Assembly (NCBI GenBank): GCA_000004695.1 | Contig: CM000152.2 | Location: forward strand, 3,200,001-3,264,000 | Direction: 5' to 3' | DNA from: Dictyostelium discoideum | Taxonomy: Eukaryota | Length of the DNA: 64,000 nt | Shown here: one piece after another, positions 18,251-57,413 of the stretch | Layout: every line of letters starts with the position of its first letter | Position numbering within the stretch: position 1 is the first letter of the stretch | Translations under genes and position numbers: made by a program | Notes under the pieces: model-generated | Database searches by the model: none | Told to the model about the DNA's origin: nothing | What the model saw: the letters and a program-made list of their open reading frames with translations, nothing else

Positions 18251-19470
18251 TTTTGAATTGAGATTAAAAAAAGCAAGGGGCAGGTTAACTTTTCACCATG
18301 TAGTTAACCCTCGAAAGCTCAATTCAAAAAAAAAAAAAAAAAAATTATTGAAAATAAGAAAAAATCAATTAAGTTTTTTAACGGTTTTTTTTTAAAAAAC
18401 TAAAAATAAAAATAATAATTAGATTGTTTGGTAATTAAAATGAATATTTATTTGATTAAATTAATTAATTAATTTTTTTTTTATTAATTTTTTTCATTAT
18501 TTTTTCTTTGAAAAATCTGAAAAAAGTGGAAAAAATTGAAAAAGTTGAACTTGGAGCGTACTTTCTAAGGGTTTGGTGACCATTTAAATCTTCCAAAATA
18601 GTTTTACGAAATTCTCTATAGGATAGGCTATATTTGTTATAATTTTTGTGAACCACAAAGCTATTTACGATATAACATTCTATGATATACCAAAACAGTG
18701 TTAAATACCACTTTTTATTATGACCCGAATAAAATTCTTTTTTTATTCTTTGGTCTTGGCGGTCGCAGCACCCATGTTCATACGATAACTCACCAACACA
18801 ATAGAAAGTTTAATAGGTTCTGAATTCATTCTTTCCATTGAATTTGATTTATAATCCTCCTCTGTTGTTGGATCTTTAATTGTTTGAACCACCACATTCT
18901 ATAATAATAGTAAAACATCCTATTTCATTAATTAAACTATCTTCTTCTTCTTGAATTGAATGAGATAATAAATCAAAGTGACCTTCATCGTCTTCACCCT
19001 ATCAGAATTCATATTGTCAAAATTTGTTGAAATTTGTTGTTCAACTTTTTGTTTTTTTTTTTCCATTTCAAAATTTTTTTTATTAAATATATTGTTATTG
19101 AGGTGGAGGATAAGATATTACATTAAACTATATTTTTTTTTCTATTTTAATGAAATTAAAAATGAAAATAGCGCAACAGTACCACCACGCACACTGAATT
19201 TTTTACAATCATTCCAAAATATCATTAAAATATATAATGTAAATTTTTAGTAGAATTAAATAATATTATCATTGCAATCCAACAAAATGATCAATCACTT
19301 AAAAAAAAGTTTTTACTTTTTTTTTTTAAACGCAAAAATAAAAAAAAAAATAATAAAAAAAAAAAAAAAAATTCTGCACACGTCCATATAATTTGTTTTT
19401 ATTTATTTTTATTTTTTAAAAAAAAAAAACCTTTTTATTGATTTTTTGAATTGAGCTTTTGAGGGTTAAT
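18251..19470. mobile_element. Candidate inverted-repeat-bounded element or relic, about 1.2 kb. 25-bp imperfect inverted repeats lie at 18303..18327 and 19446..19470; there is a nested hairpin at the left end and degenerate coding remnants inside
   Basis: Left end: TTGAATTGAG..GGTTAACT-11nt-AGTTAACC-CTCGAAAG-CTCAATTCAA. Right end: TTGAATTGAG-CTTTTGAG-GGTTAAT, the reverse complement of the left inner arm (23/25). The interior has ATG-less open frames of roughly 100 aa that are GC-richer than the flanks. Confidence 0.35.
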
Positions 19471-49761: not shown

Positions 49762-51911
49762 TTATTGTTGTTTTAAAGTTTCCATATAAGTATAGAAAGC
49801 AAATTCATTACTATTGAGACCATATTTATAAACGAAACGACTTGCTAAATAAGAACCAAAGATAGCTTTAACGTATGGTTCTGGTACACGTTCCATAATT
49901 TTATCAACACCTAAAAGATTTAATAAAACCTTTGGACAAGCAGCAGAGATGATTTTACGTCTGAGTGATTGATCAGTCCAAAGGGAAGAGGTTTGAATTG
50001 AATCATTGAGTGAATTGATTTTATTTGATAAGAGATCGGAAAGGATTGAACGTGGAGTTTTAGTTGATTCATGTTCACTCCAAATACATTCAAACTCTAA
50101 ACGAGCATTTGATTCAATGGTATGATGAACGTCTTTAATGTAATTTTCATAAAACTCTGGTACTACATTATCCTTGACACACATATGTCTATCGAATTCT
50201 TCATCATTCAAAGCCAAAGCGGCCAAGACCTCCAAAGAGGAAGAAGTGACACCACCTTTATTGGCAGAGGCATCCTTAAAGATGATAGCACCCTTCTCTT
50301 CGATCATTAATCTTGCCTTTTGAGTAAAGAATAAATTAGCACCTTCAACGATGATTGGGAAACGAGATTCACCGGTTGCAGTGAACATTTTATCGACATT
50401 TGTCAATTGTACAGATTCTGGTCTACCACCGCATGGTACAAAGATATCGGCATTACATAATGGATTGAGATGGAAGTTATTTCTAAAGATGAGACCACTT
50501 TCGACAATGTCACCATTTGGTAATTTTACATCATTCTCTGCAACATCAACAAAGAAACCTTGTGGAGAGAGTTTTGATTTATCAAAGTAACGAGCCATTT
50601 GACGTTTACTAGCGAGACGACCAATCTCATCACGATTGAGACCTTGTGGATCCAAGAGTACACCGGAACCATCGACGATACCAATGGTTTTATCTTTGGA
50701 GATTTTAATTTCATTTGAACCTAAATCACCATCTGGACCACCAGTTTGGAATTTTGTGCAATCGGCTTCGTTTCTACCCAATTTAGCGAGTGTACCAAGA
50801 ACGTATTGATGAATGGATCTAGTGGTCATACCATAGAGATCATGAGGAATACCACCTCTACTTAATGATTTACCAGTGGTAAAGGCTTTCCAGAAATGTG
50901 CACCACGATCTTTAGCGTGACTTGAAGCCCAATTCATGAAATCGGCAGTACCCTCATCTGGACCGAGGAAGAGGATCTCTGGTTTGGCAAAGTGATCGAC
51001 AATCTCGTGATTTGGTAATAAAAGATCCAATAAACCATCGATATATTTATGGAAAGCAACTTCAGCTTTACTTTGATGATCGGCAGACAAGAGAATAGTA
51101 CCCTTTGAACCACCTTCAGCAATATCCTTATTCTTTGATTGTTGAGTATTGGCTAAATTGTAATTCTCATCAAACAATGATGAAGAGTTATGATCGTATT
51201 GAGTGGAATTACCAGATCTAATGATACGAATACCACCACGAGAAATATCACGGAAACGAATATGGAAACCACGGAATTCAGAACCAACAACAAAGAAAAC
51301 TGCGTATGGTGTTGAAACGTATTCTTTAGTTGAGAGGAAACCTGGATCCAAACGGAATGATAAAGCTGTTTTAGTTTGTTTATAGAAATTTGTCTTTAAT
51401 AAATGACGATTGAATGATAAAATTGCTGAAAAGATTTGACTATCCAATTCATTATTTACTGTCTTTTTAATTGATGCTAAAATCTCTGAACCATGTTGAA
51501 CATCATATTTTTGTGTATTATTACTGTTGCTACCACTGAAATGGAACTTTTCAAAGTCTTGATATAAAATTTTAATCAATTCTGGATATTGTAAAACTGC
51601 ATCTCTAACACGACCTTCTGTGAATGTATCCTTACTTAAACGAGTCTTTAATTGTGCTAACATTGATTGTTTGGTTGAATCATCACCAATTGCTGCTGCC
51701 AATGCTGAATACTCTGTAGCATATCTATTCAAAAATTGATAAGCAAATTTCCAACAAACATATGCATATGTAACTTCTGGGAATGATAATTGATGTGATA
51801 AAAATAATGGTGTTAATGATGTTCTTGGTAAAACATAAACTAATGATGCCTAAAAAAATAAAAATAAAAAAAATTAAAAAATAATTAGTTACTAATTAAT
51901 TAAATAATAAT

Positions 51912-51978
<67 letters not shown>

Positions 51979-53025
51979 CTTACTTGTTCAGCAATTTTTG
52001 AAATTTTAGTATTAATATCAACATCTGGATGTAATGGACGTAAATAAATTGAATAAATTGTAATACCATTTGAGAATTGTTCAACATATTTATGAGTTGC
52101 ATACATTTGATGAAAATGGTAGAGTTCACCAATTGCAGACCAATAGGAGTGAGTTGAACCACGACGATAGGCAATGACTAAACGAGCACCATTGGTTTGA
52201 TATGGATAATGTTTAATGACTGGACCTTGTTTACCAACAGACTTCATTCATAACTTCTTGATAGATCTTTTTGGTGAGTTCAGATGATTTCTCAATGAAT
52301 GAGATATCACCAATTTTGAAGAGATCAGTCTCGGTGGCGAGTATTTCATCGTTTTTACTTGCAGAGAGGTCATTGGTTGCTTGTGGGAATACTGGTTTTG
52401 TCAAGTAGTAAAGACGGAGATGAACTGGCGATGAATTCGATACTGTACCAGTGGTACGATAACATGCCAAACGGAAACCGTGTGGTGGTAAGTTGGTGCC
52501 AGTTGGAGGCTTTGGTGAGACTGGGAATGGAGCAACGGCAACTTGTTGTGGACTTAATAATTGTTGGTCTTGGTGGTATCCTTCGCCAAAGTAGTGTGAT
52601 TCAATTGCGTGTTCAATCATCATTGCTGGTGAATCTCTTTTACCTGGGTTCGATGGGGTGATGAATGTGGCACTACCCTCGTTCTTGCTGTGAAGATGTA
52701 CTTCCAATTTGGCACCAGTTGCATGTGATACCATCTTTGCTGCATATAATGAAAGGATGTGACGTGCAATCACAATTGATGGTGTACTATCGAAATAGTT
52801 GCTATCAAGTCCTAACTTACAGTAGAACCAATCAACCTCTGGTTCAACTCTTGAACTTTCAATTAAACGTTCAGACTTTAATAAACTTTTAACTTCAACA
52901 GCTTGTTCTTTATATGGATTTGACTCTAATAAATTTGCTAATGCATCACCATCTTCTTTAGTGAAATATTGAGTCTTTGGTTGAGCTGCAATCTCTTGTG
53001 AAATTGTTAAATTTTGGTTTAACAT
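49762..53025 (-). CDS. glud2: NAD-specific glutamate dehydrogenase, large (about 1040-aa) fungal/protist GDH2 type, with an apparent frameshift near 52231..52247
   Basis: Three track ORFs on one strand (52231..53025, 51900..52247, 49762..51732). The second and third join via intron 51850..51983 (GTAAGT...TTTTTTAG, phase 0, contains a 60-nt poly-T). The first and second overlap by 17 nt in different frames. GDH catalytic core is in the last exon (GGSKGTILL, GPDEGT). Confidence 0.8.
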
Positions 53026-54357: not shown

Positions 54358-54508
54358 AAAATATTTTTTTTTTTCAATTTTTTTTTTTTTTTTTCAATTT
54401 TTTTTTAATTTTTTTTATTTTTTTATTTTTTATTTTTTAATATTTTTTGTACTACTATTATTATTAATTTTTTTTTTTATTTTAAAAAAAAGAAACGATA
54501 ATAATAAT

Positions 54509-55234
54509 ATGGATCAAAGAGATAGTAGATCTCCATCTCGTTCACCAGGTGACGATAATAAAAAAGATATAGATAGTAAAAATAATGGTGGTGCTGTAAA
54601 TAACAACTCAAATGGCAGCAATACTAATAATGGTAATTCAGCAACAAATGCTAACAATGATATAGTTATGAAGGATGAAAGTAATAGTAATAACAATAAT
54701 AATAATAATAGTAATACCAGTAACAATGGTACAAATAGTAATAATAATAGTAATAACAACAATAATAATAATCGTGATAATAGTAGATCACCTTCACCAA
54801 GAGGTAGAAGAGGTGACTCTAAAGAACGTTCAAAGAGTAGAGATAGAAACGATAGAGATAGAGATAGGAGTAGAGATAGAAACGACAGAGATAGAGATAG
54901 ACATGATAGAGATAGAAGTAGAGATAGATATGATAGACATGACAGAAGCAGAGAAAGAAATAGAAGTAGAACACGTTCAAGATCTGGTTCAAGAAGAAGA
55001 AAGTCTATCGATTTTAGCTTATTAGCTGAAAGAAGAGTTTATGTAGGTCGTATCTCAAATAAAACTACAAGAGAATCTCTAGAAGATTCTTTCCTTAAAT
55101 TTGGTAAAGTTCTATCGTGTGATGTTAAAAATGGTTATGCTTTTGTTGTATGTATTAAAAAAATAAAAAAAAATAAAAAATAAAATAAAAAATAAAATAA
55201 TAATAATAATATTGTTTAATTAAAAATTACTAAC

Positions 55235-55278
<44 letters not shown>

Positions 55279-55741
55279 AAATTATTCAACAGGAATTTGA
55301 TAATGAAAAGAGTGCAAGAGATGCCATTGAAGAAATGCACGATTCAATTGTTGACGGTGAAAAGATTCTTGTAGAGAAATCACACAGTGGTAAAAAACAT
55401 CCAGATGAATGTTTCATTTGCAGAGGTCGTGGCCATTGGGCTCGTAGTTGTCCAAAAGGTGGAAGGTATGTAATTTTATTCTCTCATAAATTTTTCCGGG
55501 TTTTTTTTTTTATTTTTTTTTATTTTTTTTTTTTTTTTTTCAATTTTGGGGAATTTTTATTTTTAGAGGAATCAATAACTTTTTGTTTTTTATTTTGTTT
55601 GGACCAAATAATTGGCATCTCAATAAATAATAAGTAATAAATAATAATAAATAATAAATAATAAATAATAAATAATAAATAATAAATAATAATAAATATA
55701 AATAATAATAGTAATAATAGTAATAATAATAATAATAATAA

Positions 55742-55789
<48 letters not shown>

Positions 55790-56772
55790 TTCCAAATATG
55801 CGCATGCCATCAGTACATTGGATACCAGAAAGAAAAATGGGCATAATCAGTAATTGCAATTTGTGAATATTTCTTGGAGCCAGTAACCAGTTTTGGCAGT
55901 AGTGTTGGAAGTAAGGCGTGACCTTGATGTGACACAGTTCCACTACGTTAGATAGCCATCGGTATCTGTTTGTTTTGTTTTTGTTTTTGATTGTGCCGAG
56001 TCTCGGGGTTGCCACAAGAGTTGTGTTGTGCGGCGGCGATGATGTTGTAATGTTGTAATATTGAAGAGTGGTAAAAGGGGTGAATTTGTGGTATGACGAC
56101 GACGATAATAGCATTGGATGACGACGATGATAATAGCTACAATGATGACGATGAGCAATGCAGCGGCTATGTATGTGATTATTTGTTGTTGCCATTCCCC
56201 CCAAAGTACAGGATATGTTCCTCCTCTCCCCAAATTTGTTTTAGAATAACGGTAAATACGATCACACCTCACAAATACTAATATCTCTTTCTTTCAAACT
56301 TTTTTTTTTTTATTATTTTGTATTTTTTTTTTTTAAATAATAAAGAGGTAGAGATGGTAGAGATAGAGATTATAGAGATAATAGAGACAGAGATAGGGAT
56401 AGAGAAAGAGAAAGAGAAGGTCATTTAAGAAACAGAACTTGTTTCACATGCAATGGTGTTGGTCACATTGCAAAGGATTGTCCAAAATCAAACAGACGTT
56501 ACAATCCATACAACAACAATAACAACAATAACAATGGTAGAAATAGAGATAGAAGTTATTCTCGTTCAAGATCAAGATCACCAAGATACAGAAGCAATGG
56601 TGGAAACAGATATAGAGATAGAAGTAGAGATAGAAGTAGAGATAGAAGTGGTGATAGAAGAGGTGGAAGTGACAGAAGAAGTGGTAGAGATAGAAGTACC
56701 GAAAGAAGAAGAGAAAGAAGTAAATCAAATGAAAGAAGAAGAGAAAGAGAAGGTAACAATAGTCCACGTTAA
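54509..56772 (+). CDS. Serine/arginine-rich splicing factor (SRSF7/9G8-like): RRM, two CCHC zinc knuckles and an RS/RD-rich tail
   Basis: Three exons: 54509..55147 (N-terminal RS/RD region plus RRM start, donor GTATGT), 55293..55465 (...CFICRGRGHWARSCPKGG, donor GTATGT, phase 2), 56346..56772 (GRDGRDRD...CFTCNGVGHIAKDCP...RS repeats). The second intron is unusually long, about 880 nt. Confidence 0.75.
55800..56290. other. GC-rich (about 45% GC) island inside the long SR-gene intron, with non-Dictyostelium codon usage, a local hairpin (CCGAGTCTCGG), GCGGCGGCG and GACGACGAT repeats; candidate structured ncRNA or relic
   Basis: Composition contrasts sharply with the roughly 10% GC of flanking intron sequence. 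Only short ORFs with atypical codons (acg, gac, ggc, agc). Confidence 0.3.
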
Positions 56773-57413
56773 ATTGATTTTACCTTTGATTACTCTTTAT
56801 TGAAAAATAAATAACAAAAAACCAAAAACAATAACTCTCCCAATTTATCTCTTATCAATTCTCTCAATCATCTCTCTCTCTTTCAACATAATAAATAATA
56901 ATAATAATAATAATAATAACCTTTTTTTAATCCACATTATTTAATTTTCCTCATCAATTATTTTTTATTCCCTACATTAAAATATAAAAATATAAATAAA
57001 ATTAAAACAAATAAATTAATAAATAAATAAATAAAAAAAAAAAAATAAAAAAAAAAAAATTTGTGTCATTTCATTATATATTTGTTTGAAATGTTTATTG
57101 GTGCAGTTTAAAATGGAAAGGTGGCTTTTTTTTTTTTTTTTTATTTATTTATTAATGTTTATTTGAGTAAGAGATAAAAAAAAAAAGTTTTATTTAAATG
57201 TATGAGACACATGTGAAAATAAAAGATAACAAGAAGTCATTTTTTTAATCTGGAAAATGAAAAAATCGCAATATTTATTATTTTTTTTTTTTTTTTAAAA
57301 ATTTTTTTTTTTGATTTTTATTTTTATTTTGCTCAATATTCACACTAAAAAAAAAAATAAAAATAAAATAAAAATAAATATAAATAAAAATAAATAATAA
57401 ATAATAAATAGCA

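What the first reader, a model, noticed from the sequence alone, without database searches (positions are those of the whole stretch)
55800..56290. Unexplained 480-bp GC-rich island inside an 880-nt intron of the SR-protein gene
Dictyostelium introns are normally under 200 nt and about 90% AT. This intron (55466..56345) is 880 nt, and its centre is about 45% GC with no Dictyostelium-like ORF. It carries a perfect 5-bp stem hairpin CCGAGtCTCGG, a GCGGCGGCG run, repeated GACGACGATGATAATAGC words, and a C/D-box-like AATGATGACGATGAGC. Short stretches resemble snRNA segments (GUAUCUGUU as in U2; GACGAC...AUAAUAGCAUUGG versus the U4 3' half), but none convincingly. An intron-hosted structured ncRNA such as a snoRNA is the most economical hypothesis; a captured fragment or an unannotated exon are alternatives.
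Basis: partly seen in the sequence, partly recalled or inferred. Interest (0 to 1): 0.55.

Follow-up and report, generated by a model that had tools for sequence, protein, structure and literature searches.

The report
Likely self-regulating splicing switch in SR gene
The GC-rich island inside the unusually long intron of this social-amoeba splicing-factor gene is most likely not a small RNA gene but an exon-like "poison" cassette that lets the factor limit its own production, a control known in animals and plants but which the one EST survey I found did not detect in Dictyostelium.

Summary
An 880-nt GT..AG intron (55466-56345) splits an SR-protein gene (RRM, two CCHC zinc knuckles, RS/RD tails) just after zinc knuckle 1. 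Its core (55793-56282) is 41% GC, against 11% in both flanks and 34% in the gene's exons.

The snoRNA or structured-RNA reading is not supported. There is no Rfam hit and no C box/D box pair, and the RNA folds worse than shuffled copies (z = +4.1).

Seven dictyostelid genomes from four genera carry an 837-1008-nt intron at this same codon position, each with a GC-rich, ORF-free core between AT-rich, intron-like ends. Sequence is conserved only among close relatives. There the island changes more slowly than third codon positions, and the best-kept blocks hold splice-site-like motifs.

Using any of these acceptors, or retaining the intron, gives a stop codon within 2 to 57 codons. The island also holds the window's densest sense-strand cluster of GAY triplets, the motif bound by the zinc-knuckle SR protein SRSF7.

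Best reading (about 0.55): an autoregulatory unproductive-splicing module, either a poison exon or regulated intron retention. I could not obtain transcript evidence. This would be a new member of a known kind.

The parts
54509..55147 (+). Host gene exon 1: Asn-rich and RS/RD-rich N-terminus and the first half of the RRM, ending ...GYAFV.
   Evidence: ORF and splice reconstruction. Pfam RRM_1 covers residues 177-238 of the 412-aa product.
55148..55292 (+). Intron 1: 145 nt, very AT-rich (100-nt windows overlapping it are 4-8% GC). An ordinary Dictyostelium intron that serves as an internal control.
   Evidence: The mean D. discoideum intron is 146 nt (PMC3188802).
55293..55465 (+). Exon 2: second half of the RRM plus CCHC zinc knuckle 1 (CFICRGRGHWARSC), ending ...PKGG + AG.
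   Evidence: tblastn finds orthologous exons in six other dictyostelid loci.
55466..56345 (+). Long intron 2: 880 nt, GTATGT...AAAG, phase 2, about six times the species' mean intron length. The same position holds an 837-1008-nt intron in all 7 dictyostelid genomes examined.
55466..55792 (+). AT-rich, intron-like 5' segment (11% GC). It contains the intron-retention stop codon TAA at 55635, an (AATAAATAAT)n tract at about 55620-55700, and an A36 run at 55750-55785.
   Evidence: Segmentation, stop codon, sequence.
55793..56282 (+). GC-rich core, the 'island': 490 nt, 41% GC. It has no conserved ORF on either strand, no codon periodicity, is single-copy in the window, and is predicted to be poorly structured as RNA.
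55787..55817 (+). A 31-nt block identical in three close genomes. It contains the first AG after the A-rich tract, giving candidate 3' splice site CAG|T at 55813|55814. ATGCCAT(C)AG|TA recurs in D. purpureum just before its GC-rich core. A D. dimigraforme gene model uses this acceptor.
   Evidence: Alignment. P0001 tail ...CPKGGSTLEVTRKA*. D. purpureum sequence. Coordinates.
55840..55857 (+). Conserved block GGCATAATCAG|TAATTGC. It holds a candidate acceptor at 55850|55851 and the in-frame TAA (55851-55853) that ends the frame opened by acceptors 55814 and 55829. A similar GGCATATCAGTAACCGC occurs in D. purpureum.
55978..56040 (+). Highly conserved GU-rich block of about 63 nt containing the CCGAGTCTCGG mini-hairpin (55996-56006) and GCGGCGGCG (56030-56038). 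Its role is unknown; it may be a protein-binding platform.
   Evidence: Alignment of three close genomes. Weak collinear similarity to D. purpureum, z about 2.3.
56038..56161 (+). GAY-triplet (GAC/GAT) cluster, the candidate SR-protein binding sites or splicing enhancer. There are 10 GAYGAY hexamers, all on the sense strand. Three 20-nt units lie at 56093-56112, 56118-56137 and 56142-56161. Copy number varies between close relatives, but the tract is always present.
   Evidence: SRSF7's zinc knuckle directs binding to GAY triplets (PMC9022966).
56171..56176 (+). Candidate internal 5' splice site GTATGT, with the exon end at 56170. The hexamer is the same as both constitutive donors of this gene. 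It reads GTTAGT in D. dimigraforme.
56187..56244 (+). Two C-rich pyrimidine tracts (TGTTGCCATTCCCCCCAAA and TGTTCCTCCTCTCCCCAAA). Each is followed by an AG, giving candidate acceptors CAG|56212 and TAG|56245. C-rich sense-strand tracts recur in T. lacteum and C. fasciculata.
   Evidence: Repeat family D3.
56245..56259 (+). AATAACG|GTAAATAC: candidate 5' splice site (GT at 56252-56253) near the 3' edge of the island, inside a block of about 40 nt conserved in three genomes. An analogous AAG|GTAATT occurs in D. purpureum and GTAACT in T. lacteum and C. fasciculata.
56275..56345 (+). Constitutive 3' end of the intron: branch-site-like ATACTAAT (56275-56282), a T-rich tract, then AAAG|. This is the only part of the intron with detectable similarity across distant dictyostelids.
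56346..56772 (+). Exon 3: RD-rich linker, zinc knuckle 2 (CFTCNGVGHIAKDC), RS/RD tail and stop codon.

Best explanation
The island is the exon-like core of an autoregulatory unproductive-splicing module in an SR splicing-factor gene.

**Proposed mechanism.**
- Normally the whole 880-nt intron is removed, and the mRNA encodes the full protein: RRM, two zinc knuckles and RS tails.
- When SR-protein activity is high, the protein (or a partner SR protein) binds the unstructured, GAY-rich and pyrimidine-rich island.
- That binding either activates the weak internal splice sites or slows removal of the intron.
  - Candidate acceptors are CAG|55814, CAG|55829 and CAG|55851.
  - Candidate donors are 56170|GTATGT and 56251|GTAAAT.
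  - Using these sites would include a cassette of about 320-440 nt.
- Either outcome places a stop codon just after zinc knuckle 1: TAA at 55851 or TGA at 55864 for the cassette, TAA at 55635 for retention.
- The transcript would then be non-productive and probably degraded by nonsense-mediated decay, which closes a negative feedback loop.

**What is shown.** The gene structure, the composition mosaic, conservation of position, length and composition across Dictyostelia, purifying selection among close relatives, the stop codons, the motif cluster and the lack of RNA structure.

**What is inferred.** Actual use of the internal splice sites, binding by the gene's own product, and NMD.
For: 1. 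**Host gene class.** The product has RRM_1 plus two zf-CCHC domains with RS/RD tails. The nearest named relatives are plant RS2Z32/33 and 'splicing factor 7'. This gene class is regulated by poison exons or long regulated introns in animals and plants (PMC4379411; PMC1636356).

2. **Position.** The intron directly follows the zinc-knuckle exon. Human SRSF7 likewise has its knuckle in exon 3 and its poison cassette exon in intron 3 (PMC10533491).

3. **Conservation across Dictyostelia.** The window, a second D. discoideum-like assembly, D. dimigraforme, D. purpureum, T. lacteum, H. album and C. fasciculata all have an 837-1008-nt intron at the same codon position. Each has a 36-58% GC core between AT-rich ends. 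Mean introns are 146-177 nt, and D. discoideum and D. purpureum split about 400 Mya.

4. **Exon-like boundaries.** In H. album, the AT-to-GC switches fall within one base of ...TTTTTCAG| and ...TTATATAG|.

5. **Purifying selection.** Island substitutions are 5/501 against 9/121 at third codon positions (p = 2.5e-4) versus the closest genome. They are 21/377 against 19/121 (p = 8.5e-4) versus D. dimigraforme. The best-conserved blocks carry the AG and GT motifs at the island's edges.

6. **Stop codons.** Every candidate acceptor, and intron retention, gives an early stop. By reading the sequence, retention gives an immediate TAA in D. purpureum, H. album and C. fasciculata.

7. **Motif cluster.** There are 10 GAYGAY on the sense strand and 0 on the antisense. 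Shuffles average 0.85 with a maximum of 5 in 2000. It is the densest cluster in the 64 kb. The two close relatives have 13/0 and 22/0. GAY triplets are the motif of zinc-knuckle SR protein SRSF7, whose retained introns carry repeated self-binding motifs.

8. **Unstructured RNA.** The RNA is less structured than shuffles, as expected for a protein-binding platform.

9. **Gene models.** Gene finders break the gene at this intron in three public annotations, and one uses the 55814-type acceptor.

10. **NMD factor.** A UPF1 orthologue exists in D. discoideum (PMC3177853).
Against: - **No transcript evidence was obtainable.** Look-ups of island ORFs in public assemblies and two metagenome scans found nothing.
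- **A negative survey.** An EST-based survey reported no alternative splicing of D. discoideum SR genes (PMC3173450).
- **No deep sequence conservation.** Island sequence is not conserved between dictyostelid groups, so the same internal splice sites cannot be traced.
- **Weak candidate sites.** The upstream acceptor lacks a nearby TACTAAY branch site and a pyrimidine tract. The 56171 donor is GTTAGT in D. dimigraforme.
- **Lineage-restricted motif.** GAY enrichment is restricted to the D. discoideum complex. D. purpureum has 4/1, H. album 0/3 and C. fasciculata 1/1. Triplet repeats are common in this genome, so the cluster could be a microsatellite.
- **RRM affinity.** Among solved structures of SR-protein RRMs, the RRM is closest to SRSF6, not SRSF7. 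GAY binding by this protein is therefore an extrapolation.
- **Alignment caveat.** The substitution-rate test depends on gap-permissive alignments.
- **Not Amoebozoa-wide.** Planoprotostelium and a myxogastrid-like contig lack a long intron here.
Confidence: 0.55

Rival explanations
1. The island is an intron-hosted stable non-coding RNA, either a snoRNA-like RNA or a new class, processed out of the spliced intron.
For: The island is GC-rich and ORF-free inside an intron. It has a small perfect hairpin at 55996-56006 and an ATGATGA C-box-like word at 56142. It is conserved among close relatives.
Against: - There is no Rfam family at gathering score, and the best island hit has E = 4.6.
- There is no C + D box pair on either strand, and no DUSE-like motif within 55400-56400.
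- There is no class-I-RNA motif; the motif was recalled from memory.
- The sense RNA is significantly less stable than shuffles (z = +4.1), and the antisense gives z = +1.7.
- The 'C box' lies inside a variable GAY repeat that expands and contracts between close genomes.
- No block is shared across dictyostelid groups, unlike snoRNA boxes or guides.
- There are no tRNAs.
Confidence: 0.07
2. The island is a DNA-level or separate-transcript element: an intragenic enhancer, an alternative promoter driving a C-terminal-only product, or an independent sense or antisense lncRNA. Under this view it is not a splicing substrate.
For: - It is GC-rich in an AT-rich genome and is conserved in position.
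- Gene finders start a second gene model inside or after the island in D. dimigraforme, D. purpureum and T. lacteum.
- There is a long antisense open frame in the window.
Against: - The antisense and sense open frames are not conserved. The frame shifts between close genomes and is absent in D. purpureum, T. lacteum and H. album.
- The island ORFs have no Pfam match above cut-off.
- Motif content shows strong strand asymmetry relative to the host transcript (GAYGAY 45 sense, 0 antisense in three close genomes), which fits an RNA-level role on the sense strand.
- Splice-site-like motifs sit at the composition boundaries.
Confidence: 0.1
3. The island is a functionless relic, such as an ancient insertion or decayed exon. 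It persists because the long intron is tolerated, and the GAY tract is an ordinary microsatellite.
For: - Primary sequence has turned over completely between dictyostelid groups.
- There are large indels between D. discoideum-like genomes and D. dimigraforme.
- Triplet repeats are common in Dictyostelium (own knowledge).
Against: - Length (837-1008 nt) and the GC-rich-core/AT-rich-ends mosaic are kept in seven genomes, across at least 400 My, in lineages whose mean intron is about 150 nt.
- The island's substitution rate is below that of third codon positions.
- It is not a repeat: there is no other copy in the window.
- It is the only clearly intronic GC-rich segment of at least 200 nt among the 29 in the window.
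Confidence: 0.12

Closest known systems
Human SRSF7 (9G8) intron-3 poison cassette exon and retained-intron autoregulation
   Same: - The host is an SR protein with an RRM followed by a CCHC zinc knuckle.
- The regulated element lies in the intron immediately after the zinc-knuckle exon and before the RS-rich part.
- Inclusion or retention gives a premature stop.
- The regulated RNA carries repeated GAY-type binding motifs for the zinc-knuckle SR protein.
   Different: - No sequence homology of the element was seen, and none was specifically tested.
- The exact intron position cannot be aligned: 5 residues follow the last Cys here, against 13 in the one metazoan relative I mapped.
- This protein has two zinc knuckles, and its RRM scores better against SRSF6 than against SRSF3. 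SRSF7 itself was not among the hits.
- Alternative isoforms, NMD sensitivity and self-binding are demonstrated for SRSF7 and only inferred here.
Plant RS2Z subfamily (atRSZ33/atRSZ32) long autoregulated intron
   Same: - The domain architecture is the same: one RRM, two zinc knuckles, an RS-rich tail. A D. discoideum two-zinc-finger SR protein, presumably this gene, was earlier grouped weakly with RS2Z.
- One intron is several times the genome's typical length (400-1100 nt against under 150 nt in plants). Its position and alternative splicing are conserved over long distances while most of its sequence is not.
   Different: The plant long intron lies inside the RRM, between RNP2 and RNP1. Here the RRM intron is an ordinary 145-nt one, and the long intron follows zinc knuckle 1. 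The two long introns are therefore not positionally homologous.
SRSF5 (srp2) unproductive splicing conserved from animals to fungi (Lareau & Brenner 2015)
   Same: The regulated event keeps its intron position across very distant species while the sequence and even the mode (cassette exon or retained intron) change. That matches the pattern here: position, length and composition are kept and sequence is not.
   Different: It concerns a different SR subfamily and a different intron. There the isoforms were seen in ESTs and NMD dependence was shown in Neurospora. Neither was tested here.

Membership tests
SR-gene unproductive splicing (poison cassette exon / regulated retained intron, AS-NMD) | The host gene encodes an SR or RNA-binding splicing regulator. 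| tested here: met
   Pfam RRM_1 plus two zf-CCHC domains with RS/RD tails. Nearest named homologues are RS2Z32/33 and splicing factor 7.
SR-gene unproductive splicing (poison cassette exon / regulated retained intron, AS-NMD) | The included or retained sequence introduces an in-frame premature stop upstream of the normal stop. | tested here: met
   In silico, stops fall at 55635 (retention), 55851 or 55864 (upstream acceptors) and 56279 (downstream acceptors). The D. dimigraforme model P0001 ends 9 codons after the homologous acceptor.
SR-gene unproductive splicing (poison cassette exon / regulated retained intron, AS-NMD) | The alternative isoform is actually observed in transcripts. | not testable with these tools
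   No RNA-seq access. Island-ORF look-ups and two metagenome scans were empty. A 2011 EST survey found no alternative splicing in D. discoideum SR genes. The only indirect hints are from other Amoebozoa: paired Trinity isoforms P0060 and P0152 diverge exactly at this junction.
SR-gene unproductive splicing (poison cassette exon / regulated retained intron, AS-NMD) | The isoform is stabilised when NMD is blocked, and its level responds to the factor's own abundance. | not testable with these tools
   This requires experiments. Only the presence of a UPF1 orthologue in D. discoideum is documented.
SR-gene unproductive splicing (poison cassette exon / regulated retained intron, AS-NMD) | The element is more conserved than neutral sequence. 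| tested here: met
   Within the D. discoideum complex, substitution rates are below those of third codon positions. Position, length and composition are kept in seven genomes. There is no primary-sequence conservation between dictyostelid groups.
SR-gene unproductive splicing (poison cassette exon / regulated retained intron, AS-NMD) | Usable internal splice sites flank the cassette. | tested here: inconclusive
   AG and GT motifs lie in the most conserved blocks at the island's edges. AT-to-GC switches coincide with YAG in H. album. However, the sites are weak or non-consensus, and one donor is not conserved in D. dimigraforme.
C/D box snoRNA | A C box (RUGAUGA) and a D box (CUGA) are brought together by a terminal stem. 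| tested here: not met
   No CTGA lies 40-260 nt downstream of any RTGATGA on either strand of 55400-56400. Rfam C/D models score 13-14 bits against thresholds of 42-60.
Any curated RNA family (Rfam 15) | A covariance-model match at the gathering threshold. | tested here: not met
   There are 0 matches in the whole window at gathering score. The four sub-threshold hits in 55400-56450 have E of 4.6 or more.
Plant RS2Z long-intron autoregulation | The long alternatively spliced intron is located within the RRM, between RNP2 and RNP1. | tested here: not met
   Here the long intron follows zinc knuckle 1, and the intron in the RRM is 145 nt. The plant position is taken from PMC1636356.
Plant RS2Z long-intron autoregulation | The protein architecture is one RRM, two CCHC zinc knuckles and an RS-rich C-terminus. 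| tested here: met
   RS2Z32/33 proteins are among the best named hits.
SRSF7-type poison cassette | The regulated intron lies directly downstream of the zinc-knuckle exon and carries GAY-type motifs. | tested here: met
   Position (one search compared). GAYGAY cluster. This is a resemblance in layout, not evidence of common descent.
SRSF7-type poison cassette | The host is an SRSF7 orthologue. | tested here: inconclusive
   Among solved structures of SR-protein RRMs, the best match is SRSF6 RRM1 (E = 4e-13). SRSF3 is weaker (1.4e-8), and SRSF7 itself is not among the hits at E of 1e-5 or better. The protein has two knuckles rather than one.

The most novel reading that the evidence does not exclude
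The module may work as in human SRSF7. Intron-retaining transcripts with multivalent GAY and pyrimidine sites would act as an RNA sponge or scaffold that sequesters the SR protein, as well as serving as a poison exon. The placement of a regulated intron right after the zinc-knuckle exon may also be ancestral to amoebae and animals. That would make this one of the oldest autoregulatory splicing circuits, now open to study in a haploid, genetically tractable organism with few SR genes (two by a 2011 count).
Probability: 0.1. Interest if true: 0.75.

Novelty: new member of a known kind. Interest (0 to 1): 0.5.

Why it matters
SR splicing factors in animals, plants and fungi control their own levels by unproductive splicing. 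It is debated whether this control is ancient or repeatedly reinvented.

A 2011 survey found no alternative splicing in D. discoideum SR genes and took this to fit a low-intron organism. If the prediction holds, a long, composition-mosaic intron conserved across Dictyostelia in the RS2Z/SRSF7-like gene would extend the phenomenon to Amoebozoa.

It would also offer a simple genetic system, with two SR genes by that survey's count, a haploid genome and easy knock-ins, to dissect how such feedback works.

There is a practical point too. The gene is split or truncated at this intron in three public dictyostelid annotations, and these should be corrected.

Tried and rejected
**RNA-gene tests.**
- Rfam at E of 10 or less on the island and at gathering score on the whole window found nothing.
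- ARAGORN found no tRNAs.
- Scans for C/D box pairs, DUSE and the class-I-RNA motif found nothing at the island.
- Folding of both strands gave worse-than-random stability.

**Coding tests.**
- Island ORFs on both strands had no Pfam match above cut-off.
- No frame is conserved across species.
- There is no codon periodicity.

**Repeat or transposon.** There is no second copy in the window.

**Deep sequence conservation.**
- No shared 7-10-mers were found across lineages.
- blastn between distant introns found only the branch-site region.
- The D. discoideum-D. purpureum local alignment is only marginal, z about 2.3.

**Transcript evidence.**
- Two island ORFs are not on record.
- Two metagenome scans, with a conserved island block and with a degenerate exon-2 pattern, gave 0 hits.

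**Wider conservation.**
- Planoprotostelium and a myxogastrid-like contig have no long intron at this spot.
- The annelid and Capsella loci gave no alignable intron-position homology.

**Papers.** Königs et al. 2020 and the D. discoideum genome paper are not held in the library.
Full report
**1. What is there**

The + strand carries a three-exon gene.
- Exon 1 is 54509-55147.
- Intron 1 is 55148-55292 (145 nt, very AT-rich).
- Exon 2 is 55293-55465.
- Intron 2 is 55466-56345 (880 nt, GTATGT...AAAG, phase 2).
- Exon 3 is 56346-56772.

Only this splice restores the frame ...CPKGGR|GRDGRDRDY.... The 412-aa product has an RS/RD-rich N-terminus, one RRM, two CCHC zinc knuckles and an RS/RD tail (Pfam). 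Intron 2 starts five codons after the last cysteine of knuckle 1.

- 55797-56290 is 40.9% GC. The core 55793-56282 is 41% GC, against 11% for each intron flank, 33.9% for the gene's own exons and 23.4% for the window.
- Among the 29 GC-rich segments of at least 200 nt in the window, the island has almost no 3-base GC periodicity: 0.07, against 0.12-0.56 for all but one other.
- It is single-copy in the window.

**2. It is not a recognisable or structured RNA gene**

- Rfam gives no match at gathering score anywhere in the 64 kb. In the island there are only E > 4 hits, 13-14 bits against thresholds of 35-60.
- The C-box-like ATGATGA has no CTGA D box 40-260 nt downstream on either strand. No DUSE-like promoter word lies within 55400-56400.
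- There are no tRNAs and no class-I-RNA motif; that motif was recalled from memory.
- The 504-nt sense RNA folds at -106 kcal/mol, whereas dinucleotide shuffles average -130 (z = +4.1). All 100 shuffles fold at least as well. The antisense RNA is also no better than random, z = +1.7.

Selection, if any, has favoured an open, single-stranded RNA.

**3. It is not coding**

- The longest sense open frame is 65 codons.
- A 206-codon antisense open frame is a by-product of the GAY repeats, because their complement has no stop codons. It changes frame between the two closest genomes and is absent in D. purpureum, T. lacteum and H. album.
- The island ORFs have no Pfam family above cut-off.

**4. Comparative evidence**

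The source genome's own protein was not returned by the databases, but orthologous loci were reachable.
- D. dimigraforme was found directly (P0001, L001).
- T. lacteum was found through an exhaustive protein search and a profile search (P0006, L002).
- D. purpureum, H. album, C. fasciculata and a second D. discoideum-like assembly came through the neighbouring, divergently transcribed NAD-glutamate dehydrogenase gene. Its synteny with the SR gene is kept throughout.

In all seven genomes an intron interrupts the gene at the same place, right after knuckle 1.
- Its lengths are 880, 948, 971, 858, 859, 1008 and 837 nt.
- It always has an AT-rich 5' part, one or two 36-58% GC cores, and a 42-105-nt AT-rich tail with a TACTAAY-like branch site.
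- Mean intron length is 146 nt in D. discoideum and 177 nt in D. purpureum, which are estimated to have diverged about 400 million years ago (PMC3188802).

Primary sequence is not conserved between the distant species. No shared 7-10-mers were found, and blastn detects only the branch-site region. D. discoideum versus D. purpureum shows only marginal collinear similarity, z about 2.3.

The feature does not extend to all Amoebozoa. Planoprotostelium, and a myxogastrid-like contig, have only short gaps between the knuckles.

**5. Constraint among close relatives**

Against the second D. discoideum-like genome, the island shows 5 substitutions in 501 aligned positions, whereas third codon positions of exons 2-3 show 9 in 121 (Fisher p = 2.5e-4). 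Against D. dimigraforme the figures are 21/377 and 19/121 (p = 8.5e-4). The alignments are gap-permissive. Most differences are indels in repeat tracts.

The best-conserved blocks are as follows.
- 55787-55817 is identical in the three close genomes. It contains the first AG after the A-rich tract, CAG|55814.
- 55840-55857 is GGCATAATCAG|TAATTGC.
- 55978-56040 contains the mini-hairpin.
- 56165-56235 contains GTATGT at 56171 and two C-rich tracts, each ending in AG.
- 56229-56268 is TTTTAG|AATAACG|GTAAATAC.

D. purpureum has ATGCCATAG|TA just before its GC-rich core, GGCATATCAGTAACCGC inside it, and AAG|GTAATT at its right edge. In H. album the two AT-to-GC transitions fall within one base of ...TTTTTCAG| and ...TTATATAG|.

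**6. Consequences for the reading frame**

- Joining exon 2 to 55814 or 55829 gives a TAA at 55851.
- Joining it to 55851 gives a TGA at 55864.
- Joining it to 56212 or 56245 gives a TAA at 56279.
- Retaining the intron gives a TAA at 55635.

By reading the sequence, retention gives an immediate TAA in D. purpureum, H. album and C. fasciculata. The D. dimigraforme gene model P0001 uses the 55814-type acceptor and stops nine codons later. Cassettes bounded by 55814/55829/55851 and 56170/56251 would be 320-438 nt.

**7. Motif content**

The island has 10 GAYGAY hexamers on the sense strand and none on the antisense.
- Shuffles average 0.85 with a maximum of 5 in 2000.
- It is the densest cluster in the window.
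- The two close genomes have 13/0 and 22/0, with copy-number changes but constant presence.

The zinc knuckle of human SRSF7 switches its RNA specificity to GAY triplets (PMC9022966). SRSF7's own retained introns carry repeated SRSF7 motifs (PMC12179342). Its poison cassette exon lies in intron 3, directly after the knuckle-encoding exon 3 (PMC10533491).

There are caveats. GAY enrichment is weak in D. purpureum (4/1) and absent in H. album and C. fasciculata, which instead have purine-rich and C-rich tracts. Triplet repeats are common in this genome. Among solved SR-protein RRMs, this protein's RRM is closest to SRSF6 rather than SRSF7.

**8. Interpretation**

The simplest account of all this is that the island is the exon-like core of an unproductive-splicing module, either a poison cassette or a regulated retained intron. 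The facts it explains are:
- a splicing-factor host gene;
- a long intron kept at one position across Dictyostelia;
- a mosaic of AT-rich ends and a GC-rich core;
- purifying selection centred on splice-site-like blocks;
- unavoidable premature stops;
- an unstructured RNA rich in motifs.

Through this module the SR protein, or a partner, would limit productive mRNA. This matches what is known for SR genes in animals, plants and fungi, where position is often conserved while sequence and mode change (PMC4379411; PMC1636356).

It is not positionally homologous to the plant RS2Z long intron, which lies inside the RRM. The protein architecture, however, is RS2Z-like, and a two-zinc-finger D. discoideum SR protein was earlier grouped weakly with RS2Z (PMC3173450). 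That same paper found no alternative splicing of D. discoideum SR genes in ESTs, so the prediction is new but unverified.

I could not obtain transcript data. Use of the internal sites, self-binding and NMD remain inferences.

**9. Verdict**

- The snoRNA or structured-ncRNA interpretation is not supported.
- The finding is probably a new member of a known kind, with confidence about 0.55.
- Interest is moderate. It can be tested directly with existing RNA-seq and simple genetics.

Noticed in passing
L001:4001-6274; L003:2508-4576 (- strand); L002:4001-6003: Public annotations of D. dimigraforme, D. purpureum and T. lacteum split or truncate this SR gene at the long intron. They show read-through tails or a second model starting in or after the island. 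The H. album, C. fasciculata and second D. discoideum-like models each span the whole locus as one gene.
   Followed up: partly
window 55750-55789 and 56295-56334: An A36 run before the island and a T-rich tract after it form a 40-nt, 88%-complementary inverted repeat. In RNA this could loop out the island. A/T runs are also present in the close relatives and in D. purpureum, but not in T. lacteum or H. album, so the pairing may be chance in an AT-rich genome.
   Followed up: partly
window 55620-55700: An (AATAAATAAT)n tract gives several sense-strand AATAAA hexamers immediately after the intron-retention stop codon at 55635. Premature polyadenylation of unspliced transcripts is conceivable but untested.
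   Followed up: no
window 49762-53025 (- strand) versus 54509-56772 (+ strand): The NAD-specific glutamate dehydrogenase (GDH2) gene and the SR gene are arranged head-to-head. This synteny is kept in all seven dictyostelid loci examined.
   Followed up: yes
window 55620-56240 (- strand): A 206-codon antisense open frame covers most of the island. It arises because the complement of GAY repeats has no stop codons. Its frame is not kept in close relatives.
   Followed up: yes
L003:2812-2873 (- strand): D. purpureum has an extra short intron inside zinc knuckle 2 that is absent from the window's gene.
   Followed up: no
proteins P0060 and P0152 (EukProt TRINITY_DN1646 isoforms i1 and i2); P0021, P0153, P0155: P0060 and P0152, two Trinity isoforms of one gene, diverge exactly after ...CPSSR, the homologous junction. 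P0021, P0153 and P0155, from EukProt transcriptome or short JGI contigs, also end a few residues after zinc knuckle 1. This hints that retention or alternative use of this junction is widespread. The source organisms are mostly unidentified.
   Followed up: partly
window 18540-18897: This is the only other GC-richer segment (32% GC, 358 nt) in the window that lacks codon periodicity (0.04) and has only 75% open frame. It is possibly a UTR or a non-coding element next to a minus-strand gene.
   Followed up: no
L006 versus window 54400-56900: The assembly labelled D. discoideum (GCA_054859385.1) is only about 88% identical to the window over this locus, gaps included, and about 7% different at third codon positions of exons 2-3. 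The window's source and that isolate are therefore noticeably diverged.
   Followed up: partly
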